IMG/VR virus record: IMGVR_UViG_3300042514_001283
Span: 3,982 to 67,981 of that record
Reading direction: 5' to 3' (one strand)
Length of the DNA: 64,000 nt
Source: a virus
Both the position numbers and the translations under genes were made by a program. Positions 4,301 through 64,000 of this stretch are shown piece after piece. Each line of letters opens with the position of its first letter. Within the stretch, counting starts at the first letter, position 1. The notes beneath the pieces are model-generated. The model was not told the DNA's origin. It made no database searches and saw only the letters and a list, made by a program, of their open reading frames with translations.

Positions 4301-6100
4301 TTAAACATTAATAATTCCAGTATCAAATATTTTAAATAAATCATACACGCCTTGCACTGATCCAGAAATTCCTAAATAATCATCAAATCTTGCTTGATAG
4401 TCTGTAGCATCTTCAAAATTTTCTATTCTAGGAACATCTTTTAATGCAACAGTTCCTATTGCTCTAAACTTATTTATATTTGATAAACTATAAATATTAG
4501 CATTACCATTAATGCTTACTTCATCCGTTGTTGGAATTCCTAAAAGCAATGTTTTTCCATCTCCTGAAATAGAAACTGTGCGTCCAAAATTTTCACTATT
4601 TAATGAAGTATCTATGATTCTAAGTTTTTGAGTCCAATCTGAATTTAGTCTTGTAAATATATGACAACCTCCAGATTCTGTAGAAACTGGACCAGCTGTT
4701 GCACCTATTCCTAATGAATAAAAACCTCCTCCAGAATTAGTTACAAAAGCTCCAACTGCAATAGTATTTCCATCATATGAAATAGAAAGATCACTTCCAA
4801 AATTATACTCTAAAAGATTTTCACTTGAGAACAACTTTGCTTGCTGTCTCCAAGTATCCCCAATTAGTGTATATACATAAGCAAAGTCTTTAGAGCTATA
4901 AGAGCTGGCTACAAAAGTTGATCCATCTCCAGAAATAGAAACTACTCCTCCAAAAAGATAACTTGATGTTGCATCTTCTGACACAATTTTTTGTCTTTCT
5001 GTCCAGGTTGTTCCAGAACGAGTAAATAAATATACAGCACCGTTGTTTGTGTTTGGAGAAGTGCTTTCGTATGGAGCTCCAATTAAAGCTGTACTTCCAT
5101 TTGATGAAATGTCAACTGACAAACCAAAATTATCATTTGATGCTGCATCAGATGCTATAAGCTTTGCTTGCTGTGTCCAGGTTGTTCCAGAACGAGTAAA
5201 TACATATGCAGCACCGTTGTTTGTGTTTGGAGAAGTATCTTCAAGGTAAGCTCCAATTAAAGCTGTACTTCCATCCGCTGAAATAGATGATGAGAATCCA
5301 AAAGTATCACTCGATGCTGCATCAGATGCTAGAAGCTTTGCTTGCTGTGTCCAGGTTGTTCCAGAACGAGTAAATACATATACAGCACCGTTGCTGCTAT
5401 TTGGAGAAGTGTCTTCTCCAGTAGCACCAATAAGTACTGTATTTCCGTCTTCTGATATAGATACTGAGATACCAAAATTATCGGATGCTGCTCTATCTGA
5501 TGGTGCAAGCTTTGCTTGCTGTGTCCAAGTTGTGCCAGAACGAGTAAATACATATGCAACACCTCCATAGGGAGTTGGACTTGCTGAGCCAAGATAGGCT
5601 CCAATAATTGCAGTATTTCCATCTGATGAGATAGATAACATTTGTCCGTATTGATCAAAAGTCTCTAAATCTAATGGAGTTAATTCTGAAATCTTGTTAT
5701 AAGAACTTGTTGGAATTGAAACACTGCTAAAGTCTTCACTAACTCTTGCATGATATTCAAAATTTCCCATTACTGATCCTGATCCCCATTGAACAAATAC
5801 GTCTGAGTTGTGTTGTTTAAAATTCTGAGAATGATTATGCGAAATTGATGCACTTGAAAGTGAAGCAGAATTGTTATAAATTATTGGAGTATCCCAAGTT
5901 AAACCAACCCCGTCTGAAGAAACTGTTGAAACAACGTTTGACTCTAAAGGTCTATATTGACCAATACTTTTAATTATATAAAGCTGCGACCATGCTGACC
6001 ATTGGTTTTTGTCAACAGATATAATTCTAAATTGAAAAGCATGATCTCCATTTTTATCTGGTGGGGATAATTTTTCTACAGGAATTCTTATCTCTGCCAT
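4301..6100 (-). CDS. tail protein with FG-GAP beta-propeller repeats
   Basis: About 7 repeats of FGxSVxISxDGxTALIGA...GAxYVFTRSGTTWTQQAKL. Confidence 0.85.
   Translation of the reverse strand: MAEIRIPVEKLSPPDKNGDHAFQFRIISVDKNQWSAWSQLYIIKSIGQYRPLESNVVSTVSSDGVGLTWDTPIIYNNSASLSSASISHNHSQNFKQHNSDVFVQWGSGSVMGNFEYHARVSEDFSSVSIPTSSYNKISELTPLDLETFDQYGQMLSISSDGNTAIIGAYLGSASPTPYGGVAYVFTRSGTTWTQQAKLAPSDRAASDNFGISVSISEDGNTVLIGATGEDTSPNSSNGAVYVFTRSGTTWTQQAKLLASDAASSDTFGFSSSISADGSTALIGAYLEDTSPNTNNGAAYVFTRSGTTWTQQAKLIASDAASNDNFGLSVDISSNGSTALIGAPYESTSPNTNNGAVYLFTRSGTTWTERQKIVSEDATSSYLFGGVVSISGDGSTFVASSYSSKDFAYVYTLIGDTWRQQAKLFSSENLLEYNFGSDLSISYDGNTIAVGAFVTNSGGGFYSLGIGATAGPVSTESGGCHIFTRLNSDWTQKLRIIDTSLNSENFGRTVSISGDGKTLLLGIPTTDEVSINGNANIYSLSNINKFRAIGTVALKDVPRIENFEDATDYQARFDDYLGISGSVQGVYDLFKIFDTGIINV
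5001..5570. repeat. 174-bp tandem repeat (58-aa FG-GAP blades)
   Basis: GTCCAGGTTGTTCCAGAACGAGTAAATA-like unit starts at 5001, 5175, 5349 and 5523. Confidence 0.9.
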
Positions 6101-7305
6101 TAAATAACTCCTATGCCAAACCTATATTCTACATAGCTTGTAGAATTTTCTCTCTTTAAAATTGGATTTTGATCTAATGTTTTTACATGTTCAGCAGCAA
6201 CAAGAGAGTATAGAGGGTTATAACTAGAAATATTCTCAAACCTTATTCCATCATAAAGTACAAAATGTTGTCCAGTATTAACATTAGAATCATTATGAAT
6301 ACATGTATAAATTCTTATGCCATTTATAGAGCTCCAAGAAAAGGTTGGATCTGTTGTAAAATCTGACAAACTTTTTGTAACAACTTGATACCTTGAATTA
6401 TCTAGTGAAGCATCTGGATTTAACACATCTACATCTTGAAGTGCAATGTTTACATAGGCTTTTGGTGTAGAGTTTGTTGAATTATTTAAAAACTCTAGTC
6501 TGATTTTAACATTGTCTGGTGCTGATGAATTTGCACCTAATCTAGCAGTACTAATTACTGAAAATGCTAATTTTATTTTATCTGTTGGTAAGTTCTTTCC
6601 TAAGTTTAAACTAATAGAATTATTTTCAATATAATATGAAGCACTACTAGAAGTATCTATTAAAGACGAGCTTGCAGATACTCCAGAAACCACAGAAGTG
6701 CTTCCAGAAACAAGTAAACTTTTATCTAAATATCTTGGAGGCTCTGCCCTATTTATTCTATCTGAATATTCAAATATTGGAGAGTTGCTATTTATAAACA
6801 CAAAGTCTTCTAGTGTATAAAAATTACCTGGCGTAATTTCATGTAAGGTTTCAATGTCTCCAGCAACAACTTGGTCAATTCTAAGAGGACCAATATAAGA
6901 AACAGTTCCAGACTCATCAAAATTATTAGAGTATGCCCAAGGTTCTGAATTGCTAAATGTTGAAAGAATTCTGCTGTCAAAATTACCAGCTACTGCATTT
7001 ACTGCTGCTGGATATATTCCAAGTTCAGTTATCTGATATCTTTGTTCAATAGGAAGCTCTGCTTTAAAAACAATTTTTTCAACGTACTCATTTGTTTCTG
7101 GATCTAATTCTTTTAAAAGACCTTTTGATAAAACTGGAACCCTTGCTACCTCAAACTCTAAAGACTGCACACTTGCAGAAAATGTTGCAGAAGAAGATGT
7201 TGGGTAAGCTTTTCCACCAACACCAATTGCAATATGACTTGCAAATTCTGGAGCCTGGTTTAAAAGATATTTTGCTACAATGTTTTTACCGTTTGTTGTA
7301 ATCAT
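6100..7305 (-). CDS. minor tail/baseplate protein
   Basis: MITTNGKNIVAKYL...IAIGVG...ITELGIY N-terminus typical of tail/baseplate proteins; operon position. Confidence 0.7.
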   Translation of the reverse strand: MITTNGKNIVAKYLLNQAPEFASHIAIGVGGKAYPTSSSATFSASVQSLEFEVARVPVLSKGLLKELDPETNEYVEKIVFKAELPIEQRYQITELGIYPAAVNAVAGNFDSRILSTFSNSEPWAYSNNFDESGTVSYIGPLRIDQVVAGDIETLHEITPGNFYTLEDFVFINSNSPIFEYSDRINRAEPPRYLDKSLLVSGSTSVVSGVSASSSLIDTSSSASYYIENNSISLNLGKNLPTDKIKLAFSVISTARLGANSSAPDNVKIRLEFLNNSTNSTPKAYVNIALQDVDVLNPDASLDNSRYQVVTKSLSDFTTDPTFSWSSINGIRIYTCIHNDSNVNTGQHFVLYDGIRFENISSYNPLYSLVAAEHVKTLDQNPILKRENSTSYVEYRFGIGVI

Positions 7306-8174
7306 GATTCCACCTTATATATTGTACCATTTGTGTCTATGAAGACCTCTACCTGCTGGTTTTTTTCCAAGTTAATAAGCTCTATAACCAAGTCACCATT
7401 TGTGTCAATATAACAATGCCCTTTTTCACGAGTAATTAATACATTATTTTCATCAAGATATTGATAAGTTGAATCTAAGTTTTGTAAAATTATATAATCT
7501 TCTTGAGGTATCTTATCTTCAATATTAATTGTATAAATGCTAGTAAGAGGCTTAAACTTGTCCATAGGACTTAATTGTTTTCCTGCGTCATACTTTTTTC
7601 TTACTTCAGATAGGTTTGAAATAATTGAGTATCTTTGATTAATTCCCTCAATAGTGTCATGTCTTTCAATTATTGATAATTCTATTGCAGAAATATTTTC
7701 AAAAAGTAGTTTTTGTATTTGTTCCGCATCAAACTGTGGCACTAAAGAAGATATGTCTGTAACATTTCTTGGTGCATTTCTAACAATATCAACAGGAATT
7801 GGATTCTGTCTAGGAATATCTGGGGTTGGATCCATAGGTGTGGTATATAAATTATCATCATCAGGAAAGCCAGTATTTGTGGGTCCAGGAGTTTCTGCTA
7901 CAACTGTTGGCGGAGGCGGAGGCGGAGGCGGTGGTGGAGGAGGGGGAGGAGGCGGTGGTGTAGAATCATGAGCATCCCTTACTGGAATTTTTTGTGCTGC
8001 TTTTAAAGCTGCGGCTTTTTCTGCTGCTTCTCTTGCTTTAGCTCTAGCTGCTTCATCTGCTCTTGCTTTTGCTGCTCTTGCTGCCTCTTTAGCCGCTGCC
8101 TCTCTTGCTGCTTCAACAGCTTCACTAGCTTTGGTACTATTTTTTTTCTTTAAAGAATCTGCATACTCTCCCAT
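7302..8174 (-). CDS. tail-associated protein with Ala/Lys/Glu helix and Pro17 tract
   Basis: Translation; 17 consecutive Pro codons at 7908-7958. Confidence 0.75.
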   Translation of the reverse strand: MGEYADSLKKKNSTKASEAVEAAREAAAKEAARAAKARADEAARAKAREAAEKAAALKAAQKIPVRDAHDSTPPPPPPPPPPPPPPPPPTVVAETPGPTNTGFPDDDNLYTTPMDPTPDIPRQNPIPVDIVRNAPRNVTDISSLVPQFDAEQIQKLLFENISAIELSIIERHDTIEGINQRYSIISNLSEVRKKYDAGKQLSPMDKFKPLTSIYTINIEDKIPQEDYIILQNLDSTYQYLDENNVLITREKGHCYIDTNGDLVIELINLEKNQQVEVFIDTNGTIYKVES

Positions 8175-8175
8175 A

Positions 8176-11100
8176 CTACACCTCCATTACTCTTAGCTGA
8201 CTTTTAACATTTGAAGAAGATCTTCCATATTGAGCAGATATAACAACAAATCTTTTATTCTCATCTACCAGCTTAACACCTTCTGGTAAATCAAAATTAA
8301 TCTTAACAATATCTCCAAGTTGTACATGTGCTGTTGCAAAAGTGTCTATTTCAAATACTTTTCTGGGTTTAATAGTTTTATCAAGAATCCATTTCATAAT
8401 ATCTTTTGCAGAGTCTTCATTTTGAATATACACAGAATCAATAGAAAACGATTTACTTCCATAAGTTGATCTACTATTTTTAATACTATCATATATCTTT
8501 TCAGATCTTCCTGGAGAAACAATTAAATTATTGTTAGTGATAGCTGGATCAGAGAAGTTTGACAGTTCTCTAAAGTAGTCATCAACTGTTAAAACATTAG
8601 AGATATTTTGAGTAAATGTAATTCCTTGAATCATAATTCTATTTGAAGAACTTTCACTTAAATCTATTGCCTTGTCTGTTGTATTAAAGATTAAGAATTC
8701 AGCTCCATAAGATCCTGGCAAAAATCCTGAAACTTGATAAGATTTTTCTACAGTAAATGGAGGAACAATTTTTGCTATTAATGCTGGGTATGCTTGATCA
8801 TATTTAATATTAAAATATGCACACTCTCTCATTATTGTGCCAAACTCTTCAAAATAAAAATCTACAGTTGGCTTTGTTTCTGCACTAATAGAGGATAGGT
8901 ATGTATTTTGAATTGCTGATGGAAGAGAATACTTTCTTAAAGATTCAGCAGATATTGTATTATTTACCTTTTCTCCTAAAGAAACATCTTCTTCTCTTAT
9001 ATTTTTTAAAGCAAAAATATTTTCAAACATACACTTAGAAGATCCTCTTGTAAATAAACAAGTCTTTAAGCCACCACTTGGCATTTGTAGGGGGTTATTA
9101 TCAGAAACTGTTCCAAGCAATACATTATTTAAATATATATAAAAGTCAATTCTATAAATTCCATTTGCATTTCTTTTAATATCTGTATCTAAAGATATGT
9201 CGTACACTGCTGCCTCTTGAGAGGTTAGTCTATCAGATCCAATAAATTTTCCTTCATCAACAAGAATTCTTACAAGATGCCCCCAAAGTTTTTTAGGAAC
9301 TGCAATATTTGTTTTTCCAGCTACTTGTGTAGAGTATGGAGTTCTTTCTACTTTATAAAAAATTATATTTTCAAGAACTTGGTCGTCTGGAATAAGTCCA
9401 GAGGTAGCAACTAGTTCGTTATTTTCATTTAGCCTAAAAGGTACTCCACTTTCACTTTTGTCTGAACCGTAGTACTTAAGAATGTCTTCAGTCATGGATG
9501 CTATTTCAAGATAATAGCCAGAGTTTGTATTTGGATCAACCATATATCCAATTCCACCAGCACCTCCAGAAAGGGTTGTAATGTTTCCCTCTGGAGTATT
9601 TTTACCAATTGTAAAAAGGTCTATTGAATTTAAAGCAGACTGTGTTTTATCATCTTTTATTTTTCCAATAATCCTCATTCTTGTTCCAACGTGCCTATAA
9701 TCTGTATCTAAATCTTTATAAACATAACTTATTAAGTCTTTACTATCTGTTTGACTTAGTTCTGTATTTTCTAAAGATGGAACTGGGTATGGTCCATTAA
9801 ATATTAATGCAGACGATTGAATTCCTGCAACGTCTTGTTGACTATGACTGGAAAATCCCTCTGATCTTGTTGACTTCTTCATAAAGTTAGCAATCTTACT
9901 GGTTATTGAAGATTTTTCTTGTGAAGCTGTATCGTTGCCAAGGGGGGTTGCTGCAACTGAATTAGATACTGGATCATGAGTTAAAAATTCTGTTGGAACA
10001 TTGCTAAATATGTTTTTAGAATCCATTCTAAAAGATTTTCTATTATTTGAATCTTCCCAATAAGAATTTAATCCAGCATTGTGGGCTGTAATAGCTGTTC
10101 CAAACTGACCTCTGCCATGAGACCTAACTTCTCCATTTTTATATTTAACATTTTCTTCTAAATCATCAAAGTTAGCCCCAGATGCATTTTCATAATATGG
10201 TTCTGTATATATTCTAAGAAGACCCGTTAAAACCATTTTTCCATTAAAGACTAGCTTGGAAAAATATTTCTGGTACTCGTTATTATTTGTTATCCAAACA
10301 AGACCATTTGTTGCAGAAGCAGATGGAGAATCTACCTGATATTGCTGTGCATCATATCTTATAATTTCTCCATTGGCAAATAAATACCCCTGAAATCTTG
10401 GCAACCAAAAAGCACTTTCTCCAACATCAATTGTATTATTTACTATTTGACTATTTACAACAGTTGGCACAGCACTTCCAAGACTAGTTCCTAGCGGGAC
10501 TGCTCCAAGTGCATATCCAACATTTGCTGTTGGCTGGTTTATTGTTCTTGCTTCTTGTTGATCTCCAAGTTCCCAAAGTATTGCACTTTTATACCCATAT
10601 GTTCTTTCACTAAGACTTAAACTAGCTTGCTCTAACTTTGATACTTCTCTTTGTATATATCTAGTTGTATAGTTAATTTGACCATCATTTAAGATCTTTG
10701 TTTCAAAACCCGAAATAGTTTCAATGTTTGGAACAATACTATCTGTTTTTTGCCCATAAAGAGTTGTCAATCTTTCAGATATTGCAGAATTGTCATCTCT
10801 TACAGAAACATCTGGCATCAAATATTCTTTTGGCATAATTACAAAATTATTATACTCGTCAAAGAACATGGCGGTCTGAGTAGCCTGTGCAAGTCTTTGT
10901 AAAACTTCTGCAACAGAAGCATCTGGCTCAACAAAGAAAAATGGAATTACTGGATCATTTGCAGTATTAATATTTTTAAATACATAATTGCTAAAACCAA
11001 TATTGTCTAGTAATAAGGCGACTGCTTTTGTAAGTGTTGAGTTCTGTAAAAATATTGAAGTAGCCTTACTAGATTCTAATATAAAATAAGCATCTCTTAA

Positions 11101-48717: not shown

Positions 48718-51700
48718 TTATGCTCCTAATAAAATATCCACTGCTTTGAATGGATATCCTTTCTTTATTGAATTTACATTTGGTCCAAGCATTAATCTTG
48801 CATCAAAAGTTGATCCTAGTGGTGGAACTTCAGAGTACGCTATGTATCCATCTGAGTCAACCATAAAGCCTTCTCTTGGTAACATAGATTGCCAAACATA
48901 TTCTGGAAAATCCACTACTTGTATTATACCATTAATTGTTAAGAGAAGTCTTAAAGGATTGTTTATAGCAACTTGTTCCCCTGCAAATTTTGGAAGGAAT
49001 CTACTAGTAATTCCATCAAACTCATATCTCATATCATCTATTGGAATAATGTCTGGTAAATATGGAAGACTTGCAAAAATTAAATCATCAACATATTCTT
49101 TGTTTGCTGCGTCTGTATCGTCTGTAGGCGATGGAACTGTAACATGTCCAGTAAGTGTCGGATTATTTGTTCTTGCTATTTCAGAATCTATATAATCTTT
49201 ATCAATTGGGGTTGCTGCCCAAGTTCCAACAGTTACATATCCTAATGTACTAATATTTGAAGGAACTCCAGAATATTGTGCAAATATTATATTATCAGTT
49301 CCAACTTTTATTGCACCAGCTGGATTAATAGAAGTTCCACCTTGTGATACTACATACGAATCGTTTGCAGAAACACTTCCAGATGTTACGAATACATAAT
49401 CTCCTGATTTAATTAAACCACTAGTTACACTTGCTCCATTAAAGTTTACTGCTCTTGTAAGAATAAATGGGTCATCACCATCTCCAGGGAATGATACTAC
49501 ATAAATACCATTTTGTTTTTGATCTGCTTGATTTCTAATAAGAACTCTTTGAGATGATTGAACTTCATCTCCATCTAGAATTAAAGCTCCGTCAACATTT
49601 CCAGTTAGAGTTGCACCAACTCCAAGACCTCCAGATGAATCCGATGTTCCATTTACATAAGTTGCATTTAAAGCTTGTTGGGAAACATAAACAACTTCAG
49701 GCTTTATGTTAATTCCTGATGCAAGTGAATCAACATAAGATTTATTTGCTGCATGTGTTGAAGTTGTTGGGGTAGGAACTGATATAGATCCATTAAAAAC
49801 TGTAGAAGGATAAACTGAAACTGTTCCAGTTGCCCCAGCTGTTGAAGATCCAATATTTATATTTGTTTCTGATCCTGAAACTCCACCAGTTCCAATGTTA
49901 ATTGTTTTTGTAGCAGTTGTTGCGTTTCCAAATAGTGTTGCAGTAATAGATCCAGTTGGAGTTCCACCAATTGTAAGAGATGTTGCAGCTCCTGCAAAAT
50001 TAACCGTAGCTGCAGTTGTATTAAACAAATCTAGAGTTGAACTTGTTGTTGATATAGTTGGAGCTCTAAGAGATGTTACTGCTCCTGCATCTGTTGATCC
50101 TATTGTTAATGTTGTTGCTGCTCCTGCAAAATTTACTGTTGTTGCAGTACTATTTACTAAATTAAAGCTACTAGTTCCAGATATTAAAGATGTGCTAATT
50201 GTTGGAGAAGACCCAGTTATATAAGAATTAGTGTCAATCGTCCATGTATCTGGTCCAGTTCTTTTTAATAGACCAACTCCTGAAGTAATTGCAGAAATTG
50301 CTGTAAGATCTCCGTCAACTGGTTGATATCCAGATAAAGCTGATGACAAGGCGTATGTACTTGTGTCATAAGACCATGTTCCTGCTGTATTTTTTAGTAA
50401 CCCAGTTCCAGAACCAAGGGTATTAATTCCTGAAAGATGTGAGCTATAAGCCTGAACATCTGTTCCAATTACAAGACCTAAAGAAGTTCTTCCAGTAGAT
50501 GCAGTAAGACCTGTGGATCCTCCATCCCACTTGTTTCTATCCGTGTAGGCAGTATCCCAGTTAGAAGAGTTGTTGGCTGTTGTAGTGTATGTTGAATCTG
50601 ATCCACGAATAAGGATTCCAGCTGTTGATAATGCAGAAATATTAGTAAGGTTTAAATCTTTTGATTGATATAAAGTTGTCGCATTAGTCTGAGTTAAATA
50701 TGTTGAAGAAGCAGAACTTTGTGTTAAGTAAGTGTCTACAGCTACAGAGGCACTTAAATATTCAAATAATGTTGGCGAAAGTGCATCTATTGCTCTTTGA
50801 TTTGTAAAATATAAATTACCTGTTTCAGAAATCTGTGAAGTGTTATATGAATTTATTCCTAAAAATGCAGTATTTTGAATTGATGTATCTGGAAATACAA
50901 GTTGTCCAGAATTATTAAATGCAAAGTTTGCAGATCCTGAACCAGTTGCAATAATAACACCCATGCTATCATTTAACACTATTGAATTAGAAGCACTTTG
51001 AAGACTTATTATGCCATTTGAATACCCATCATACGATCTAATGACAATTGAATCAATATATTCCCAACCACTTTTTGTAGCAATATTTATTTCATTTGGA
51101 TCTCTATTGGTCCAAACAGATCCTGAAGAACTATATGCTAATATCTGATTATTTACAGGACCTGTAAAGTCAACATCTTCAAGAAGAAAAAGACTAGTTC
51201 CTACCGATGCTGATGCCCCTATTTCTAACCAATAAACTCCATCATATACAAAAAATTGAGCAGTGTCATCTTTATACCAAAGATCCCCTTGTGCTGCAGG
51301 ATATGGTTCTGTTGCACTAATTAGAGCTGCTTCTAAAAGTACTTCTTGATTAATCCATGCAGAAGATGCGGAGCTCCACATAAGAGCGTCTCCATCAGTT
51401 AAAGAATTTATATAAACATTTGAAAGACTGTCTAAACTATGATTATGAGAGCTTGTTGCTAATCCTGCTTCATCTGCTGTTTGATTAATCCAAAGACTTG
51501 ATGCTGTATCATATGCAAGAACTTCATTGTTTGCTATGACTCCACTAATTGTTACATCTGTAAGACTTGTGATATCACTAACTGCAGAGACTGTTTCATT
51601 TATCCATTTTGAAGTTGTGGTATCCCAAACAAGTGCTTGTCCATCAGTGGGGCTGGTAATTACAATATCTGTAAGATCATCAAGTGCTGTTGGTGGCTGA

Positions 51701-57080: not shown

Positions 57081-58790
57081 TTATCCAAATACCTGTATTG
57101 CTATTATGAGCTGAGCGTCATCTGATGTTGGTGTTGGACCAGGATCTCCTTGTGGTCCCTGTGGTCCTTCTGCTCCATTTACTCCAGGTACTCCTTCTAC
57201 TCCATTTAATCCAGGATCTCCTTGTGGTCCTTGTGGTCCTTGTGGTCCTTCTGGTCCCTGTGGTCCTTCTGCTCCAGCTGCTCCATTCATTCCACTTAAT
57301 CCAACTTCTCCATTTAATCCAGTTAGGCTAACATCACAAGTATTTGATTCCCACATAGCTGTAGGTTGTTGAATAATATCTACAGTATAGCTATTAGATC
57401 CAACACTTGATATATTTCCAATAATATTTCTAGATGCATTATAATATGTAGGTAATGGTGAATTAATAGTATCTCTTTCAAAAATCCAACTAGAAGTAAC
57501 TGTTGGTGAGGCTGGAGCAGTTAGTGTCTGAGGGTATCCAGTAATTACTGTTCCAGAGACAGTGTCTACAAAAAGTTGAATTACCCATCCAGATCCATTT
57601 GCAGCACTTGCTGTTATATATTGATTAGGATATATGTCCATAGGGGAAGAAGTATTAAATGTTACGGGTTGGTATTCTAAAGATGCTGAATTTAATGCAC
57701 TAGCTGATGTTGCTGAAGCAGAAAGGACTGGATTAAGTTCTCCAACATCATAAATATTTTTAAGTTTTACATTATCTCCTACTGAATATGCATAATCATT
57801 AACATCTACATAAACTAATACATCTGAACCAAAATATCCAGGTATAGTTCCAAGAGCTACATCCGTTGTAGCATTTAATAGATTAAATCCTTTTGCTGCA
57901 GACTGTGCCTCTAACTTTGTTGCATATATTGTAGAAGCATTTATTTGTGTTAAATATGTAGAAGAGGCATTTACCTGTGTTAGATAAGTTGAGGATGCTG
58001 TAGAAATATCTAATTTATTTCCAAGAGCTGTTGTAATTGTGGAAGCATAGTTTGCATCGTCTCCAAGGGCTGCTGCAAGTTCGTTTAGAGTATTTAATGT
58101 AGATGGAGCTGAATCAACAATTGCTGCAACTGCTGCTGCTGATGCACTTGATAAATCAATATTATTCAATTCCGTTTTTGTTGCATATGTTGTTGAGGCA
58201 GAAGAAGCAGAAAGTTTAGAATCAATTTGGGTCTGAATGGCACTTGTAACTCCATTAAGATATCCAATTTCTGTATCAGAGACATCTACTACCCTAAGTT
58301 GAACTGTTCCAGTTTGATCTGGAAGAGTAATTGTTCTATCAGCAGTTGGCTCACCTGGCTCTAAAGTTGTTTCAAATTCATTTGCTGTTGTACCTTCAAA
58401 AATAATATTATGTGGTGCTGGAAGATATATGCCGTGAATAGTTGGTGTTTGCCCAATAGCAGTAATTGCTGGTCCATTAATTGTTGGAGTAGTTAAAGTT
58501 TTATTTGTAAGTGTTTCTGTTTTTGAGGCAGTTGATTTATTATCTAATTGTGTTTGAATGGCAGAAGTTACACCATCTAGGTATCCTATTTCAGTATTAG
58601 AAACATTTGCAACTATTGTTTGATATGTATTTGAAGCACTTACTTTATTAAGATATATAGCACTTGCTGCGGAAGTTTCTAAATAATCAGCAGTTAAATC
58701 AATACCAACAATATCCCAAGCGGTTCCATTAAATTCATATCCATCAAAAATTTGACCAACAGAAGCGGATCCAGGAAATATTGTAGCCAT
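57081..58790 (-). CDS. fibre protein with collagen-like repeats
   Basis: Gly-X-Y run at about 57130-57325; [16 protein letters not shown] twice; [11 protein letters not shown]. Confidence 0.85.
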
Positions 58791-60106: not shown

Positions 60107-60868
60107 TTATAATCTTTTTTGATGATCTTTGAACTTTTGTCCGAATGCATGAATTCCATTGAAATATTTTCTACCTGAAGTATGTGCTTTCTCTTTATCT
60201 TCATTAACTCTTTGACGACCTAGTTCATTTGCATCATTTTGTTCATTTTTAATTAAGTCTTCTGAAAAATATTTATTAACAGTATCTAATTCAAATTTAT
60301 CTATAAAGTACCTTGGCATAGGAATAAAGGCAGCTAAGGTATCACCTTTTTTAAATTCTACTACCCTTCCTGGATCGGTTAGCTTTATATTAAAGGTAAA
60401 GTCTCGTCTTATCTGATCTGCCTCAATAACTGCTGTCATTGCTACAGCTCCTGGGGTAAACATGTTAGGAGCTTGAATTGTCATTAAATTTATTCCTGGA
60501 GGGGTTTTTAGTTGAAAGCTATTTTGAATAGTTAATACTCCTTCAGCAAATCCTGGATGAATGTTTTGCATGGAAAAAGAATCTCCTGGCTCGTATATGT
60601 TAATATGAATATCTTTAGGATTTCCTGATGAACCATCCCAGGTTGCATCAAAATCATATGCTGCCTTGATAATAAATCCGTATTGATTTCCTATGTTAAG
60701 GGGTAAACAATAGTAAGCATGGTTATTAAACCAATCTCTTTTAATATTACCCTTTAAAGATTCTACAATTTCTGGATATCTATCATACTGCTCTTCTCTA
60801 CCAGGAAAAGGGATTATTAATATTTTATCCTCAGGGACTTCAAAACCAGGATCATTGATATAGTCCAA
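60107..60868 (-). CDS. DUF6065-like protein
   Basis: AYYCLPLNIGNQYGF, TPPG, IEADQ...FTFNIK. Confidence 0.75.
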   Translation of the reverse strand: MDYINDPGFEVPEDKILIIPFPGREEQYDRYPEIVESLKGNIKRDWFNNHAYYCLPLNIGNQYGFIIKAAYDFDATWDGSSGNPKDIHINIYEPGDSFSMQNIHPGFAEGVLTIQNSFQLKTPPGINLMTIQAPNMFTPGAVAMTAVIEADQIRRDFTFNIKLTDPGRVVEFKKGDTLAAFIPMPRYFIDKFELDTVNKYFSEDLIKNEQNDANELGRQRVNEDKEKAHTSGRKYFNGIHAFGQKFKDHQKRL

Positions 60869-61444
60869 TTAAATAACCCATCCATCAAAGTATTGGCTAT
60901 CCTGAGTCCAGAACGAGGCAAGGGTATATCTAACACTATCTTCTATTTTAGATACGCCATGAAGGTGCTCTGGGTCTCCTGGGTGTATTGCAAGTTTTCC
61001 AACGGCAGGGGAAATGTCAAAATTATGATTTGGATAATATGTATGTCCACCAGAGTAATCATCATTTAAATATATAATAGCTCCATACTCTCTATGATTA
61101 AACCATTCTAATGATTCTTTATGATCTTCGTGAGCATTTGTCATATCGTCACAATGTGGGGCTTGTTCCATTCCAGGAAACCAACGAATGACTTGAAATA
61201 GATCTGGATATATCTCTGATAGGTTATATGAGTCTTTTATTTGATTTCCCACTCTTTGACGAATATCATATAACATTTCCCCGATTTCTTTGTCATGAGA
61301 ATAAAGATGTTGAGCATTTAAGCTTCTATTACTCCAGAACTCTGATCCACCTTGTTCCCATGGCTCTATGCCTTTTACAAATTCTAAAATTTTATTAGAT
61401 TCTTCTATAGATATAAAGTTATCTATTGTTTTTGCATTAAACAT
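60869..61444 (-). CDS. 2OG-Fe(II) oxygenase, prolyl 4-hydroxylase-like
   Basis: HCD...IIYLNDDYSGG...HGV...RYT. Confidence 0.88.
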   Translation of the reverse strand: MFNAKTIDNFISIEESNKILEFVKGIEPWEQGGSEFWSNRSLNAQHLYSHDKEIGEMLYDIRQRVGNQIKDSYNLSEIYPDLFQVIRWFPGMEQAPHCDDMTNAHEDHKESLEWFNHREYGAIIYLNDDYSGGHTYYPNHNFDISPAVGKLAIHPGDPEHLHGVSKIEDSVRYTLASFWTQDSQYFDGWVI

Positions 61445-61468
61445 TTTTATCCCTTCAAAAATAAAAAT

Positions 61469-61549
61469 TTAGCTACCAGAGAGTGTAGATACAACAATTA
61501 CTGCTAATACAATCCAGAAGATGTATCTTATATAATCTTGATTATTCAT
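61469..61549 (-). CDS. 26-aa membrane peptide
   Basis: Manual translation MNNQDYIRYIFWIVLAVIVVSTLSGS. Confidence 0.45.
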   Translation of the reverse strand: MNNQDYIRYIFWIVLAVIVVSTLSGS

Positions 61550-61637
61550 TTGCTTCTCTCTTTGTTTTTTAATAATTCTATCCCCCTGCCCCCAACTTTT
61601 CTAAAACTTTTAGTTTTTTAAGATTCGCTGCACTCAT

Positions 61638-61666
61638 AGTGTAATTGCATTTTTTATACTTGTCAA
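61638..61666 (-). promoter_or_regulatory. sigma70/SigA-type promoter upstream of the hydroxylase operon
   Basis: TTGACA-N17-TACACT. Confidence 0.65.
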
Positions 61667-61851
61667 ATTGAGCTGCCAGAAACATTGAAATATTAAATTA
61701 TTTGTTACTTAATTGTAACATATTGTCTCACATAATGAGATATATATTCATATCCCCGAAAATCTGAATATTTTTATATTTGCAGCTAGATCCCATTTTG
61801 AAGAAAATCTGAATATTTTGTTAATGTGTATGATTCGTATATTTAGAAAAA

Positions 61852-61873
61852 GCTCACCTTTTTATTAGTGAGC
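61852..61873 (-). terminator. terminator of the leftward early transcript
   Basis: GCTCAC/GTGAGC stem followed by TTTTT on the minus strand. Confidence 0.55.
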
Positions 61874-61919
61874 CCATTCTATTTTTATTTAGTTTTGACA
61901 AGTGCAAAAATTCTAGTTT

Positions 61920-62060
61920 TTAGAACTCATCTTCGAAATAGTTTTCTATTTCTTGGTCACTCTCACACATGATACAGTAATTAATTTCCCATGCTGTTAG
62001 TTTATCATCACAGGTGATGCACTTATTTTTTGTAATGTTTTCAAATGCTAGTTCAGTCAT
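61920..62060 (-). CDS. 46-aa CxxC/CxxC acidic protein
   Basis: Manual translation MTELAFENITKNKCITCDDKLTAWEINYCIMCESDQEIENYFEDEF; GAGGGG RBS. Confidence 0.7.
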   Translation of the reverse strand: MTELAFENITKNKCITCDDKLTAWEINYCIMCESDQEIENYFEDEF

Positions 62061-62065
62061 TGTTA

Positions 62066-62254
62066 TTACCCCTCAATCATTTCGATAACTACTGCACCTA
62101 TTGCAGATAGTAGACCAATGATAGCCGTTGCTATCATCACATTGGCAGACATAAAGTTAAAGCCAATCACTAGTAGTTGTAGTTCTAGTAGTAGTGCAGG
62201 TAGTGAGAATACTGCAACGAATACTAGTGGGGCTTGTAGGTTGAATAAAAACAT
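62066..62254 (-). CDS. small two-TM membrane protein
   Basis: Hydrophobic 62 aa; AAAGGA RBS. Confidence 0.7.
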   Translation of the reverse strand: MFLFNLQAPLVFVAVFSLPALLLELQLLVIGFNFMSANVMIATAIIGLLSAIGAVVIEMIEG

Positions 62255-62280
62255 TTTGTTTCCTTTGTTAGTGTTGAGAT

Positions 62281-62326
62281 TTATTTGCTAGGCTCATCCA
62301 ATTTCTTGGCTTATTTGCTAGGCTCA
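62281..62326. repeat. 16-bp direct repeat TTATTTGCTAGGCTCA x2
   Basis: Exact copies at 62281-62296 and 62311-62326. Confidence 0.9.
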
Positions 62327-62349
62327 CTCTCAACCTTTCTTATGTCTTT

Positions 62350-62371
62350 AGACTAGCAGATAACCCTGACA
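62350..62371 (-). promoter_or_regulatory. TGTCAG-N10-TAnnnT promoter-like motif
   Basis: TGTCAG GGTTATCTGC TAGTCT; one of five copies. Confidence 0.7.
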
Positions 62372-62408
62372 ATTTCTACCTGAATCTCACTATTTGAGAC
62401 AATATTTT

Positions 62409-62424
62409 TGTGATGTATGTCATA
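62409..62424. promoter_or_regulatory. CRP/GlxR-like site
   Basis: TGTGA-N6-TCATA, one mismatch to TGTGA-N6-TCACA. Confidence 0.5.
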
Positions 62425-62438
62425 GAACATCTGTTCGA
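62423..62438. promoter_or_regulatory. LexA (SOS) box, actinobacterial type
   Basis: TAGAAC-ATCT-GTTCGA, one mismatch to TCGAAC-N4-GTTCGA. Confidence 0.75.
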
Positions 62439-62451
62439 ATGCCCGCGCCCC

Positions 62452-62505
62452 TGTGTATAACCTGTGTATAAGATGGGTATGAAATGCCCCTGAACCTGTG
62501 GATTA
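62452..62505. promoter_or_regulatory. cluster of DnaA boxes
   Basis: TGTGTATAA at 62452 and 62463 (match TTATNCACA); degenerate copies at 62474 and 62497. Confidence 0.7.
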
Positions 62506-62507
62506 TT

Positions 62508-62529
62508 GTTCACCTAATGTTAACCTAAA
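62508..62529 (+). promoter_or_regulatory. 11-bp direct repeat, PhoP/OmpR-family-like box
   Basis: GTTCACCTAAT-GTTAACCTAAA. Confidence 0.5.
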
Positions 62530-62552
62530 CACACCCCCTAAATGACCAAAAT

Positions 62553-62574
62553 TGTCAGACCCCTAGTGTATGAT
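62553..62574 (+). promoter_or_regulatory. TGTCAG-N10-TAnnnT promoter-like motif
   Basis: TGTCAG ACCCCTAGTG TATGAT, followed by RBS and ORF. Confidence 0.75.
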
Positions 62575-62606
62575 GAAATCATAAGACAAAAAGAAAGGGG
62601 TCAAAA

Positions 62607-62792
62607 ATGACTTACTTAGTAACAAACAAGAGAGACAACATCTCTAACGAATACATCTCTATTCATTCCGCCTTGCAAATGGTTGCAAGTTGTTTTGACG
62701 GTGCAGGTATCACCTGCGAAATAGTAGACACCCAAACGGGTGAACAGGTAGAAATCTACCGTAATCCTCTAACAGGTTGGAAGGTGGCTTAA
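62607..62792 (+). CDS. small early protein
   Basis: AGAAAGGGG RBS. Confidence 0.75.
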   Translation: MTYLVTNKRDNISNEYISIHSALQMVASCFDGAGITCEIVDTQTGEQVEIYRNPLTGWKVA

Positions 62793-62942
62793 ATGGCTTA
62801 CACTAAAATAAAGAATGCACGACTGCTAGTAGATGCAGTAAACGACCTAGAGCGTACTCTAAAGTATGACCCAACCAATCAGCGAATGATTGACCACTAC
62901 AATCGCCAAATAAATCTTTTGACTAGGCGTGTCTACAGGTAA
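62793..62942 (+). CDS. 49-aa early protein
   Basis: Manual translation MAYTKIKNARLLVDAVNDLERTLKYDPTNQRMIDHYNRQINLLTRRVYR; abuts the upstream stop. Confidence 0.7.
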   Translation: MAYTKIKNARLLVDAVNDLERTLKYDPTNQRMIDHYNRQINLLTRRVYR

Positions 62943-62945
62943 AAC

Positions 62946-62967
62946 TGTCAGACCTCTAGTGTAAGAT
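62946..62967 (+). promoter_or_regulatory. TGTCAG-N10-TAnnnT promoter-like motif
   Basis: TGTCAG ACCTCTAGTG TAAGAT. Confidence 0.75.
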
Positions 62968-62997
62968 AAAACTAACAACAACAAGAAAGGGCATCTA

Positions 62998-63165
62998 ATG
63001 TCACTAATACAAATAGCACTAATCATCTTAATACCTAGCCTACTGGCTGGGGCGTTGGCTTACTTAGTCGTAAGCGTTACAGAACTAAAGGCTAATAAAA
63101 AAATGTGGGAACAAGCCTACACAAAATTAGCAATCGAATTTGAACTATCTAAGGCAGGTAAATAA
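62998..63165 (+). CDS. 55-aa membrane-anchored early protein
   Basis: MSLIQIALIILIPSLLAGALAYLVVSV...; AGAAAGGG RBS. Confidence 0.7.
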   Translation: MSLIQIALIILIPSLLAGALAYLVVSVTELKANKKMWEQAYTKLAIEFELSKAGK

Positions 63166-63333
63166 ATGATGACACGCAAAGACTATGTAGCAGTAGCAGA
63201 AATTCTAAACTCATACCACTTAGACATTGATGCACAAATCTTTGAGGATTTACTTTCAGACTTTCAAGTATTTTTCAAAAGAGATAACTCTAACTTTGAT
63301 TTAACACGATTCAGAAATGCGGTAATTAAATAA
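63166..63333 (+). CDS. 55-aa early protein (MTRKDY...DNxxFD..RF type)
   Basis: Manual translation MMTRKDYVAVAEILNSY...FKRDNSNFDLTRFRNAVIK. Confidence 0.75.
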   Translation: MMTRKDYVAVAEILNSYHLDIDAQIFEDLLSDFQVFFKRDNSNFDLTRFRNAVIK

Positions 63334-63485
63334 TGAAATTCGTTCACAATAAAATTGACGGAACTTTTATTCTTGGAATTAGTTTCTCTAACTACTACAA
63401 TAAAAAACTAGGTAGCAAAAATTCTTCCCTGATTTTTGACTTAGGAAAACATTCAATCGCATTTATTTTTAGAGGTGAATACTAA
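63333..63485 (+). CDS. 50-aa early protein
   Basis: MKFVHNKIDG...IFRGEY; TAATG coupling. Confidence 0.65.
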   Translation: MKFVHNKIDGTFILGISFSNYYNKKLGSKNSSLIFDLGKHSIAFIFRGEY

Positions 63486-63566
63486 ATGAATAGTTTTTAT
63501 TCTTGGGTTTTAATTTTATCCCTTGCCACTTTTATTTATTTGCTAGTGGATAATTTTACAGACTAA
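63486..63566 (+). CDS. 26-aa membrane peptide
   Basis: MNSFYSWVLILSLATFIYLLVDNFTD; GAGGTG RBS. Confidence 0.55.
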   Translation: MNSFYSWVLILSLATFIYLLVDNFTD

Positions 63567-63580
63567 AAAAACCGAGCTGA

Positions 63581-63596
63581 TCGAACACCTGTTCGA
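63581..63596. promoter_or_regulatory. LexA (SOS) box, actinobacterial type
   Basis: Perfect TCGAAC-ACCT-GTTCGA. Confidence 0.85.
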
Positions 63597-63611
63597 GAAG
63601 CCCGCGCCCCT

Positions 63612-63644
63612 TTATCCACAGGCTGTTAAGAAGTTGTGGAAAAT
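63612..63644. promoter_or_regulatory. DnaA boxes
   Basis: Perfect TTATCCACA at 63612-63620; TGTGGAAAA at 63636-63644. Confidence 0.7.
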
Positions 63645-63692
63645 CCCCCTGGAAAATTTCGTTATCTTTTTGTTATCAAAATAGGTAGAAAT

Positions 63693-63714
63693 TGTCAGAC
63701 CCTTGTGGTAAGTT
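63693..63714 (+). promoter_or_regulatory. TGTCAG-N10-TAnnnT promoter-like motif
   Basis: TGTCAG ACCCTTGTGG TAAGTT. Confidence 0.75.
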
Positions 63715-63739
63715 ATAACTATAACGAAAGAGGTTAAAA

Positions 63740-63931
63740 ATGAGAGTCTATGAAATTGCTAAGCAGTTAGACATTCCTTCAAAAGATGTCAAGATGTATT
63801 TAGAATACATTGGTCAGCCCGTCAAAAGTGCATCGTCAAGTGTTGAGCCAATGTTTGGTGAGATAGTTGTCAAGCGTATTAACGAGTCTTTCAAGGACTT
63901 TGTACCTTATTGGGTACACCCACCATTCTAA
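63740..63931 (+). CDS. stand-alone translation initiation factor IF2 N-terminal domain homologue
   Basis: RVYEIAKQLDIPSKDV...GQPVKSASSSVE matches the actinobacterial IF2 N-terminal pattern RVHELAKELG..SK.V...GEFVKSASSTVE. Confidence 0.8.
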   Translation: MRVYEIAKQLDIPSKDVKMYLEYIGQPVKSASSSVEPMFGEIVVKRINESFKDFVPYWVHPPF

Positions 63932-63933
63932 AC

Positions 63934-63955
63934 TGTCAGACCTATCTGATAAACT
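63934..63955 (+). promoter_or_regulatory. TGTCAG-N10-TAnnnT promoter-like motif
   Basis: TGTCAG ACCTATCTGA TAAACT; a further ORF starts at 63988. Confidence 0.75.
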
Positions 63956-64000
63956 AATTAAACAACCTACTAGAAAAGAGAAATACAATGGGACTACAAA

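What the first reader, a model, noticed from the sequence alone, without database searches (positions are those of the whole stretch)
63740..63931. Phage-encoded stand-alone IF2 N-terminal domain
Seen: a 63-aa protein with RVYEIAKQL..PSKDV...L..IG..VKSASSSVE and its own promoter, directly behind the second LexA/DnaA cassette. Known: bacterial IF2 starts with this small domain, which contributes to ribosome association; a similar domain begins actinobacterial RNase E. Inference: an early mimic that competes with host IF2 or its partners to redirect translation initiation or RNA decay.
Basis: partly seen in the sequence, partly recalled or inferred. Interest (0 to 1): 0.7.

Follow-up and report, generated by a model that had tools for sequence, protein, structure and literature searches.

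The report
Phage copy of IF2 N1 subdomain
A lake-water phage of actinobacteria carries a conserved 63-residue gene that is a free-standing copy of the first small domain of the host's translation initiation factor IF2, plus a short conserved tail, and it probably works as a decoy or adaptor for whatever that poorly understood domain binds.

Summary
The ORF is real: window 63740-63931 (+), 63 aa. It matches Pfam IF2_N above the curated cut-off (31.2 vs 25.3 bits). Its predicted fold is closest to the solved IF2 N domain (Z 8.0, rmsd 1.7 A over 55 residues). It aligns with the extreme N-terminal N1 subdomain of actinobacterial IF2 (43-44% identity; profile probability 98.6%) and not with N2, the copy before the GTPase (0.1%). 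It is a core gene under purifying selection in the small-gene region of a clade of ~100-kb phages found in lake-water metagenomes; the portal links them to Streptomyces phages.

Residues 54-63 are a family-specific tail. Its end, Pro-Pro-Phe, matches the tip of the four actinobacterial SSBs examined.

The ribosome mechanism is weak: in E. coli, N1 binds NusA rather than the ribosome (PMC12297416). NusA of the likely host group lacks the region E. coli needs for that contact.

Best reading (0.35): a decoy or adaptor for the partner of IF2 N1. Main rival: a small winged-helix DNA binder. No function was tested. The scan noted this family once before, in another genome (e1-5999423).

The parts
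63740..63931 (+). ORF of 63 codons plus stop: free-standing IF2-N1-like protein
63740..63898 (+). Residues 1-53: IF2 N1-like domain (strand, two helices, strand, long helix)
   Evidence: Pfam IF2_N. AF2 model with mean pLDDT 86.4. IF2 N domain 4b3x_A Z 8.0, rmsd 1.7 A over 55 residues. 43-44% identity to IF2 residues 4-53 of two acI-like genomes. hhalign probability 98.6% to N1.
63899..63928 (+). Residues 54-63: conserved C-terminal tail FVPYWVHPPF, possibly a docking peptide
   Evidence: F54, P56, W58, P61, P62 and F63 are invariant in 25 sequences. The final Pro-Phe is kept in the four distant full-length relatives P0059-P0062. pLDDT is 59-68 here. This is the only one of 274 ORFs of 40 aa or more in the window that ends in PF. 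The tail has no counterpart in IF2.
63727..63733 (+). Shine-Dalgarno-like AAAGAGG, 6 nt before the ATG
   Evidence: read
63693..63714 (+). Phage-specific promoter-like motif TGTCAGACC-N7-TAAGTT
   Evidence: 5 copies against 0.89 expected
63582..63643 (.). Upstream context, not part of the gene: GC-rich cassette with a LexA-type palindrome (63582-63595), an exact DnaA box (63612-63620) and a one-mismatch DnaA box (63635-63643, minus strand)
   Evidence: Naming these as LexA and DnaA sites rests on recalled consensus sequences.
63934..63955 (+). Next copy of the promoter-like motif, 3 nt after the stop, ahead of the next small ORF (cut by the contig end)
   Evidence: downstream gene seen in L003

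Best explanation
The gene encodes a free-standing copy of the N1 subdomain of bacterial IF2 (residues 1-53), followed by a 10-residue conserved tail ending Pro-Pro-Phe.

I read it as a protein-protein decoy or adaptor made in the phage's small-gene (probably early) programme. The N1-like body would occupy the cellular docking site of IF2's own N1 domain. Either it displaces full-length IF2 from that site, or it uses the site as an anchor. The tail would hold a second partner.

In E. coli the N1 site is on NusA at the transcribing polymerase, not on the ribosome. The expected effect is therefore on the link between transcription and translation initiation, or another non-ribosomal role of IF2, rather than on initiation chemistry itself.

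Shown: domain identity, N1 rather than N2, conservation, phage origin, tail conservation.
Inferred: binding, the partner, the timing and the effect.
For: 1. Domain identity. PF04760 is above its cut-off. The solved T. thermophilus IF2 N domain is the best structural match: Foldseek TM 0.68-0.70, rmsd 1.2 A over 48-49 columns, though E is only 0.09-0.3; VIA Z 8.0 against 6.2 for the next row.

2. N1, not N2. BLASTP gives 43-44% identity over residues 1-54 to IF2 residues 4-53 of two small, GC 47-50% genomes of the order Nanopelagicales, E 1e-9 and 5e-12, with no alignment to N2. By hhalign, the phage family against four N1 segments gives probability 98.6%, E 1.1e-15, 52 columns. Against the four N2 segments of the same proteins it gives 0.1%.

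3. Shared signature. R-V-Y-E-x-A-K and the loop K-S-A-S-S-x-V-E are invariant or nearly so in the phage family and are also present in the four actinobacterial IF2 N1 segments aligned.

4. Known behaviour of N1. In the sections I read, isolated E. coli Domain I (residues 1-50 are N1) pulls down and cross-links NusA in vivo. It shows nucleoid-like slow states that vanish when the NusA C-terminal region is deleted. N1 is described as not noticeably ribosome-bound (PMC12297416, sections 10 and 11).

5. A selected core gene. Present in 22 of 22 loci including the window, always with the same two upstream families. Mean dN 0.055 against dS 0.477 for codons 1-36. It lies about 7 kb from one end of a complete 101,664-bp genome with terminal repeats.

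6. IF2_N as a portable module. Relatives found by phmmer carry one to three N-terminal IF2_N copies fused to a protein kinase, a KAP NTPase, a PLD-like domain or an AAA ATPase. That fits a targeting or adaptor role.

7. Not basic. pI is 6.55.
Against: - No binding was tested.
- The one documented N1 partner may not transfer to this host group. E. coli needs the NusA C-terminal acidic-repeat region (PMC12297416, section 11 part 2). NusA of the two acI-like genomes stops after the second KH domain at 323-324 aa, with no such repeats. The paper's discussion passage says neither terminus is conserved.
- The host is inferred, not shown. The inference rests on a portal 51% identical to Streptomyces phages, a LexA-type box, and the lake-water habitat.
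- Helix 2 differs from IF2 N1: invariant Tyr20 and Tyr23 stand where IF2 has charged residues. The mimicry is partial.
- The same fold class includes true DNA binders: RacA and pSK1 Par at Z 6.2, MerR types at Z 4-4.7.
- Similarity to IF2 N1 of unrelated phyla is as high as to the acI-like ones, 42 bits each. Capture from the host cannot be claimed.
Confidence: 0.35

Rival explanations
1. A small winged-helix DNA-binding regulator of the MerR/RacA/excisionase class. It would bind phage DNA, for example the TGTCAGACC promoter motif or the GC-rich cassette, and switch the small-gene promoters on or off.
For: - Fold neighbours after IF2 are DNA binders: RacA and pSK1 Par at Z 6.2, MerR-type regulators at Z 4-4.7.
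- In the viral structure library, the neighbours that carry a name are mostly small phage HTH, MerR-like, AlpA or excisionase proteins.
- Weak Pfam HTH hits: Sigma70_r3 at 0.038, GerE at 0.25.
- The gene sits among phage-specific promoter motifs that need some factor.
- Small regulators are common in such regions (general knowledge).
Against: - All viral-library matches have E of 0.1 or worse.
- No MerR, HTH_17 or excisionase family appears even at E up to 10, whereas IF2_N passes its cut-off.
- There is 43-44% identity to IF2 N1 itself, including the K-S-A-S-S loop.
- pI is 6.55, and helix 2 carries only two lysines (read).
- In E. coli the nucleoid association of N1 depended on NusA, not on DNA (PMC12297416, section 11).
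Confidence: 0.25
2. One reading: the protein competes with IF2 on the ribosome and so redirects translation initiation, for example leadered against leaderless mRNAs.
For: - It belongs to the IF2_N family.
- The best structural match is the N domain of T. thermophilus IF2, which precedes the G domain.
- PMC12297416, section 10, says the N2 copy likely helps 50S association.
Against: - The sequence matches N1, not N2.
- N1 is reported not to interact noticeably with ribosomes (PMC12297416, section 10).
Confidence: 0.1
3. The tail is the active part. It would mimic the C-terminal tip of host SSB and occupy the SSB-tip pocket of a replication, repair or restart protein. The N1-like body would be a scaffold or a second anchor.
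For: - The primary SSB of 4 of 4 actinobacterial genomes examined ends D-E-P-P-F, preceded by D-P-W. The phage tail is P-[YC]-W-x-x-P-P-F, with the final Pro-Phe kept in the four distant full-length relatives P0059-P0062.
- It is the only one of 274 window ORFs ending in PF.
- The phage's own SSB, in the complete relative G001, ends E-E-P-D-P-W-A and lacks the tip.
- The SSB C-terminus is a recruitment hub (abstract of PMC3000357).
- IF2 isoforms that differ by the N-terminal region affect replication restart (abstract of PMC3334882).
- DnaA-box and LexA-box motifs lie just upstream.
Against: - The acidic run that precedes the tip in SSB is missing. The last six residues carry no acidic residue in most alleles and at most one in the rest, and Lys in some relatives.
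- The resemblance was noticed after the fact and covers three to five residues.
- The tail may simply pack on the domain (pLDDT about 60).
Confidence: 0.15

Closest known systems
N1 subdomain (IF2N, first ~50 residues) of bacterial IF2
   Same: Same Pfam family above its cut-off. Same fold. 43-44% identity and 98.6% profile probability to actinobacterial N1. Same length as the domain.
   Different: Not attached to the linker, N2 or GTPase core. Encoded by a phage. Helix 2 is Tyr-rich instead of charged. Carries a 10-residue tail that IF2 lacks.
Stand-alone IF2_N proteins in sequence databases (Atlas clusters of 56-73 aa, for example 337 members in Bacillota)
   Same: Small single-domain PF04760 proteins.
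   Different: Those clusters are bacterial or unassigned. I did not inspect their sequences, so whether they carry the tail is not tested. No function is recorded for them. Only the query's own cluster is viral.
Actinobacterial multidomain proteins with N-terminal IF2_N repeats (P0064 kinase, P0066 KAP NTPase, P0072 PLD-like, P0073 AAA)
   Same: IF2_N used outside IF2. 40-46% identity to the phage protein over residues 1-38 or 1-51.
   Different: The domain is in tandem and fused to enzymes. The proteins are high-GC and cellular. None has the tail.
MerR/RacA/excisionase-type winged-helix DNA-binding domains
   Same: Same general topology; Z 4-6.2. They are common as small phage proteins.
   Different: No sequence-family match. 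The phage protein is not basic. The structural match is looser, rmsd 2.1-3.2 A against 1.7 A for IF2.
Phage early proteins that dock on NusA, such as lambda N (recalled; no call)
   Same: A possible working analogy: a small early phage protein that binds the host transcription elongation complex through NusA.
   Different: No sequence or fold relation. Lambda N is disordered and binds RNA. The NusA region involved is absent from the acI-like NusA proteins.
C-terminal tip of bacterial SSB
   Same: Ends in Pro-Pro-Phe with a free carboxylate, like the four actinobacterial SSBs examined, with a Pro-x-Trp element a few residues before.
   Different: No acidic run, no OB fold, no Gly/Pro-rich linker.

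Membership tests
IF2_N (PF04760) domain family | Score above Pfam's curated gathering cut-off | tested here: met
   31.2 bits against 25.3; 32.8 bits in the six-frame search; 56 of 58 homologues carry the precomputed hit.
IF2_N (PF04760) domain family | Fold of the solved IF2 N-terminal domain | tested here: met
   4b3x_A: Z 8.0, rmsd 1.7 A, 55 residues aligned, 26% identity, 1.8 Z above the next row. 4kjz_B and 4b43: TM 0.68-0.70, rmsd 1.2 A. Foldseek E-values are weak (0.09-0.3).
IF2 N1 subdomain, as opposed to N2 | Aligns with the extreme N-terminal copy of IF2, not with the copy before the G domain | tested here: met
   BLASTP aligns to IF2 residues 4-53 only. hhalign gives 98.6% to N1 and 0.1% to N2 of the same four proteins.
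Translation initiation factor IF2 (the factor itself) | GTPase core and C-terminal tRNA-binding domains | tested here: not met
   The frame stops after 63 codons. No other PF04760 place in the record. Full-length relatives are 63-88 aa.
IF2 N1 function (partner binding: NusA in E. coli) | Binds the partner of IF2 N1 | not testable with these tools
   Needs pull-down or competition experiments. The E. coli contact region of NusA is absent from the acI-like NusA proteins.
MerR / HTH_17 / excisionase winged-helix DNA binders | Sequence-family match | tested here: not met
   No such family listed even at E up to 10. PHROGs gave only one meaningless hit at E 0.58.
MerR / HTH_17 / excisionase winged-helix DNA binders | Fold similarity | tested here: inconclusive
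   RacA and pSK1 Par at Z 6.2; MerR types at Z 4-4.7, in the range that the tool calls common. BFVD neighbours have E of 0.1 or worse.
MerR / HTH_17 / excisionase winged-helix DNA binders | Specific DNA binding | not testable with these tools
   Only an indirect indication: pI 6.55.
SSB C-terminal tip motif | C-terminal Pro-Phe with a free carboxylate | tested here: met
   The tail ends P-P-F. The final P-F is kept in all 25 aligned members and in the four distant full-length relatives P0059-P0062. The four actinobacterial SSBs end D-E-P-P-F.
SSB C-terminal tip motif | Acidic run just before the tip | tested here: not met
   The residues before P-P-F are V-H, A-T, S-F, Y-D and the like, and K in some relatives.

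The most novel reading that the evidence does not exclude
The protein is a two-headed mimic. One head is a copy of IF2's N1 domain. The other is a peptide that imitates the tip of host SSB. Together they would link, or jointly block, the non-ribosomal partner of IF2 N1 and a replication, repair or restart protein that reads the SSB tip. This would be a phage tool acting on the little-understood connection between IF2 isoforms and genome maintenance. The gene sits beside a cassette of DnaA-box and LexA-box motifs.
Probability: 0.1. Interest if true: 0.8.

Novelty: new variant of a known kind. Interest (0 to 1): 0.5.

Why it matters
The function of IF2's N1 subdomain was described as obscure until the 2025 report of a NusA contact in E. 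coli (PMC12297416, section 10). Whether that contact holds in other phyla is open (same paper, discussion passage).

A phage that keeps a free N1 copy under purifying selection suggests that N1 has a partner worth targeting in Actinomycetota, where NusA lacks the E. coli contact region. The 63-residue protein would make a ready bait for finding that partner.

The phage clade holds this stretch in lake-water metagenomes of many studies. It probably infects freshwater actinobacteria, so the gene may matter for how such phages take over slow-growing, streamlined hosts.

My searches of the held paper library found no description of a phage-encoded IF2_N protein. Database names for family members are 'hypothetical protein'.

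Tried and rejected
- Complex prediction of the phage protein (alignment A2) with NusA of an acI-like genome (alignment A3): no verdict, score 0.00, controls not run. This counts neither for nor against binding.

- blastn of 62500-64000 and tblastn of the protein against 50,697 phage records: no match.

- tblastn of an acI-like IF2 N1 segment against the same records: 8 records, all without annotation, most of them contigs of a few kb. I take these as uninformative. Host DNA in those records is possible; I did not inspect them.

- PF04760 in three Streptomyces phages whose portals are the closest (Comrade, Muntaha, Annadreamy): 0 of 3.

- phmmer against sequences of solved structures: 0 hits at E up to 10.

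- PHROGs: nothing useful. Rfam on 61400-64000: nothing at E up to 0.1.

- Pfam on ten neighbouring or syntenic small proteins: only DUF932, an Api92-like domain and a sub-threshold hit; no clue to function.

- Host search with the 181-base upstream cassette against 301 genomes of the order of G003: 9 genomes with matches of 19-27 bases, all over the palindrome region, E 0.002-0.007. Too short to name a host. I did not check which genes they precede.

- Scans of viral contigs with the distant relatives P0061 and P0062: no new locus.

- Origin of the domain: similarity to IF2 N1 of a deltaproteobacterial MAG equals that to the acI-like genome, 42.0 bits each. I dropped the idea of showing capture from the host. 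The genome-contig scan kept only stretches that fit two peptide patterns, so it is not an unbiased sample.

- Expression: contigs of two RNA libraries (X19, X21) cover the ORF or a close relative. These are contigs. DNA carry-over is possible, and no start, end or strand can be read. I do not count this as proof of transcription. Parts without cover in X20 and X22 mean nothing.

- Papers: no hit for a phage IF2_N protein. PMC6802176 has none of the terms 'initiation factor', 'IF2', 'IF-2' or 'infB' in its main text.

- I did not build a tree of IF2_N domains. About 50 alignable residues and equal scores across phyla made it pointless.

Full report
**What is there**

A purine-rich ribosome-binding site, AAAGAGG, lies 6 nt before the ATG.

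The window is bases 3982-67981 of a 67,981-base linear IMG/VR virus record, estimated 63% complete. The ORF therefore lies about 70 bases from the contig end.

The minus strand carries a phage structural module: portal, HK97-type capsid, S78 prohead protease, and collagen-like and FG-GAP repeat proteins. The portal is 51% identical over 99% of its length to portals of ~126-130-kb Streptomyces phages (Comrade, Muntaha, Annadreamy and others), and 127 of the 320 matching records are Streptomyces phages.

So this is a phage, most likely of an actinobacterium. The 1.7-kb stretch around the gene is held by 18 lake-water or freshwater metagenome runs with at least half of its sampled words.

**Is it a real gene?**

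A word-indexed search found 58 homologues. 54 of 58 are exactly 63 aa, identity runs from 67 to 98%, and some lie on contigs up to 108 kb.

IMG/VR holds 21 related loci. Together with the window they carry 13 distinct alleles. Median pairwise dN/dS is 0.22 over 76 usable pairs. The strongest constraint is on codons 1-36: mean dN 0.055 against dS 0.477.

In my ORF clustering of the 22 loci, the gene and the same two upstream small-protein families are present in 22 of 22. Two downstream families are present in 21 of 22; the exception is the window, which ends there.

One relative (G001) is a complete 101,664-bp genome with direct terminal repeats. There the gene lies about 7 kb from one end.

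Contigs from two RNA libraries cover the ORF or a near relative. Contigs cannot prove transcription.

**What is it?**

Pfam gives IF2_N (PF04760) at E 1.9e-7 and 31.2 bits against a cut-off of 25.3, over residues 1-36. The only other hits are sub-threshold HTH families.

An AlphaFold2 model built on 30 family sequences has mean pLDDT 86.4. It shows a short strand, helices 3-10 and 14-23, a strand near residue 34, and a long helix 37-53. Residues 54-63 are of low confidence, pLDDT 59-68.

Against solved structures the best match is the N domain of T. thermophilus IF2:
- Foldseek: TM 0.68-0.70, rmsd 1.2 A over 48-49 columns, 28-29% identity, but E only 0.09-0.3.
- VIA-align over 48,161 chains: Z 8.0, rmsd 1.7 A, 55 residues.

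The next rows are DNA-binding winged-helix domains: RacA and pSK1 Par at Z 6.2, MerR types at Z 4-4.7. The tool warns that a Z under 8 may reflect only a common arrangement.

**N1 or N2?**

IF2 of E. coli and of the actinobacteria examined here has two IF2_N copies. N1 is at the extreme N-terminus and N2 lies before the G domain (PMC12297416, section 10).

I took IF2 from two small genomes of the order Nanopelagicales (G011 and G018; their nusA loci have 47% and 50% GC). The phage protein aligns only with IF2 residues 4-53: 43-44% identity over its residues 1-54, E 1e-9 and 5e-12.

Profile against profile, the phage family matches four actinobacterial N1 segments at 98.6% probability (E 1.1e-15, 52 columns). 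It matches the N2 segments of the same four proteins at 0.1%.

The shared signature is R-V-Y-E-x-A-K plus the loop K-S-A-S-S-x-V-E. Helix 2 differs: the phage has invariant Tyr20 and Tyr23.

Similarity to IF2 N1 of unrelated phyla is just as high, 42 bits each. The source of the domain cannot be named.

**The tail**

Residues 54-63, F-V-P-Y-W-V-H-P-P-F, have no counterpart in IF2. F54, P56, W58, P61, P62 and F63 are invariant in 25 aligned members. The four distant full-length relatives (P0059-P0062, 44-57% identical) keep [DE]-F-[AV]-x-x-[YW]-x-x-[PSA]-P-F at the very end.

High conservation with low model confidence is what a docking peptide would show. This is the only one of 274 window ORFs of 40 aa or more that ends in Pro-Phe.

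The primary SSBs of four actinobacterial genomes end D-P-W ... D-E-P-P-F. The phage's own SSB, in G001, ends E-E-P-D-P-W-A without that tip.

The likeness is short, was noticed after the fact, and lacks the acidic run. I keep it as a lead.

**Surroundings**

No sigma-70-type promoter precedes the gene. The motif TGTCAG-N10-TAnnnT occurs 5 times against 0.89 expected, all within 62350-63955. One copy ends 25 nt before the ATG and another begins 3 nt after the stop.

About 100 nt further upstream lies a GC-rich patch. It holds the window's only CGAAC-N4-GTTCG palindrome and its only exact TTATCCACA.

This cassette-plus-promoter arrangement is kept in 5 of 21 related loci. In the other 16, the 190 bases upstream are different sequence, read as a preceding small ORF that abuts or overlaps the ATG; in several of them (L009, L012-L014, L016) the same motif lies roughly 150-175 nt upstream. 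So 'own promoter behind the cassette' is a feature of one subclade, not of the gene.

The neighbours gave no functional clue.

**What N1 is known to do**

I read sections 10 and 11 and found passages of the discussion of Metelev & Johansson 2025 (PMC12297416). They report:
- Isolated E. coli Domain I, which contains N1, pulls down and cross-links NusA.
- It shows short nucleoid-like slow states, which drop from 14% to 2% when the NusA C-terminal AR region is deleted.
- N1 does not noticeably bind ribosomes.
- N2 likely helps 50S joining.
- The authors note that neither the IF2 N-terminus nor the NusA C-terminus is conserved.

A 2026 preprint (10.64898/2026.02.08.704698, sections 3 and 11 read) summarises the same point. 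The abstract of PMC3334882 links IF2 isoforms to replication restart.

In the two acI-like genomes, NusA is 323-324 aa with an N-terminal domain, an S1 domain and two KH domains, and no acidic repeats. The E. coli contact therefore cannot simply be transferred.

**IF2_N outside IF2**

phmmer over 1.84 billion representatives found 18 hits. Full-length matches occur only in proteins of 63-88 aa. The rest match residues 1-38 or 1-51 of the query and are larger proteins with one to three IF2_N copies. Four of these are fused to enzyme domains: a protein kinase, a KAP NTPase, a PLD-like domain and an AAA ATPase.

In four of four actinobacterial genomes searched, however, PF04760 is confined to IF2.

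The ESM Atlas lists other clusters of 56-73-aa stand-alone IF2_N proteins, for example 337 members in Bacillota.

**Verdict**

The most likely mechanism is a protein-protein decoy or adaptor for the partner of IF2 N1, with the tail as a second docking site (0.35). A winged-helix DNA regulator is the main rival (0.25). A tail-driven SSB-tip mimic (0.15) overlaps with the best reading.

Nothing about binding is shown. The scan noted the same family once before in another genome (e1-5999423); it was not followed up.

Noticed in passing
window 62385-63714: Two related GC-rich cassettes. Each has a GAAC-N4-GTTC palindrome (62425, 63583), the block GCCCGCGCCCC, and clustered DnaA-box-like 9-mers: 6 of the 27 hits allowing one mismatch fall in these two stretches of about 100 bp. 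The second cassette is kept upstream of the gene in L002-L005 and L018 only. A third GAACATCTGTTC lies at 50454.
   Followed up: partly
window 62350-63955: Promoter-like motif TGTCAG-N10-TAnnnT: 5 copies against 0.89 expected, four on the plus strand with the exact 9-mer TGTCAGACC. There is no -35 hexamer at 17 nt. The same motif lies roughly 150-175 nt upstream of the gene in L009, L012-L014 and L016.
   Followed up: partly
L111:1492-1902 (complete relative G001): The phage SSB (136 aa) ends E-E-P-D-P-W-A. It keeps the D-P-W element of the four actinobacterial SSB tails examined but lacks their D-E-P-P-F tip.
   Followed up: partly
window 61920-62060 (-) and L009/L012-L014 just upstream of the gene (+): A small Cys-rich ORF (two CxxC pairs) lies on the minus strand in the window. 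Its homologue sits directly upstream of the IF2_N gene on the same strand in other relatives. Small genes are shuffled and inverted between relatives.
   Followed up: no
L003:7087-7161, 7277-8044, 8729-9718: Downstream of the gene in a near-identical relative lie a tRNA-Asp (GTC), a protein with an Api92-like DUF1281_C domain, and a DUF932 protein.
   Followed up: no
P0063-P0074 (proteins): Cellular proteins with one to three IF2_N copies. Four are fused to a Ser/Thr kinase, a KAP NTPase, a PLD-like domain or an AAA ATPase. The architectures suggest that IF2_N serves as a targeting module outside translation.
   Followed up: partly
L126:1486-2457, L127:1486-2454: NusA of two small acI-like genomes is 323-324 aa and ends after the second KH domain, without the acidic repeats that E. 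coli uses to hold IF2 N1.
   Followed up: yes
window 57081-58790 (-), 4301-6100 (-), 60107-60868 (-): Among the structural genes are a collagen-repeat protein, a protein with six FG-GAP_2 repeats, and a DUF6065 protein next to a 2OG-Fe(II) oxygenase.
   Followed up: no
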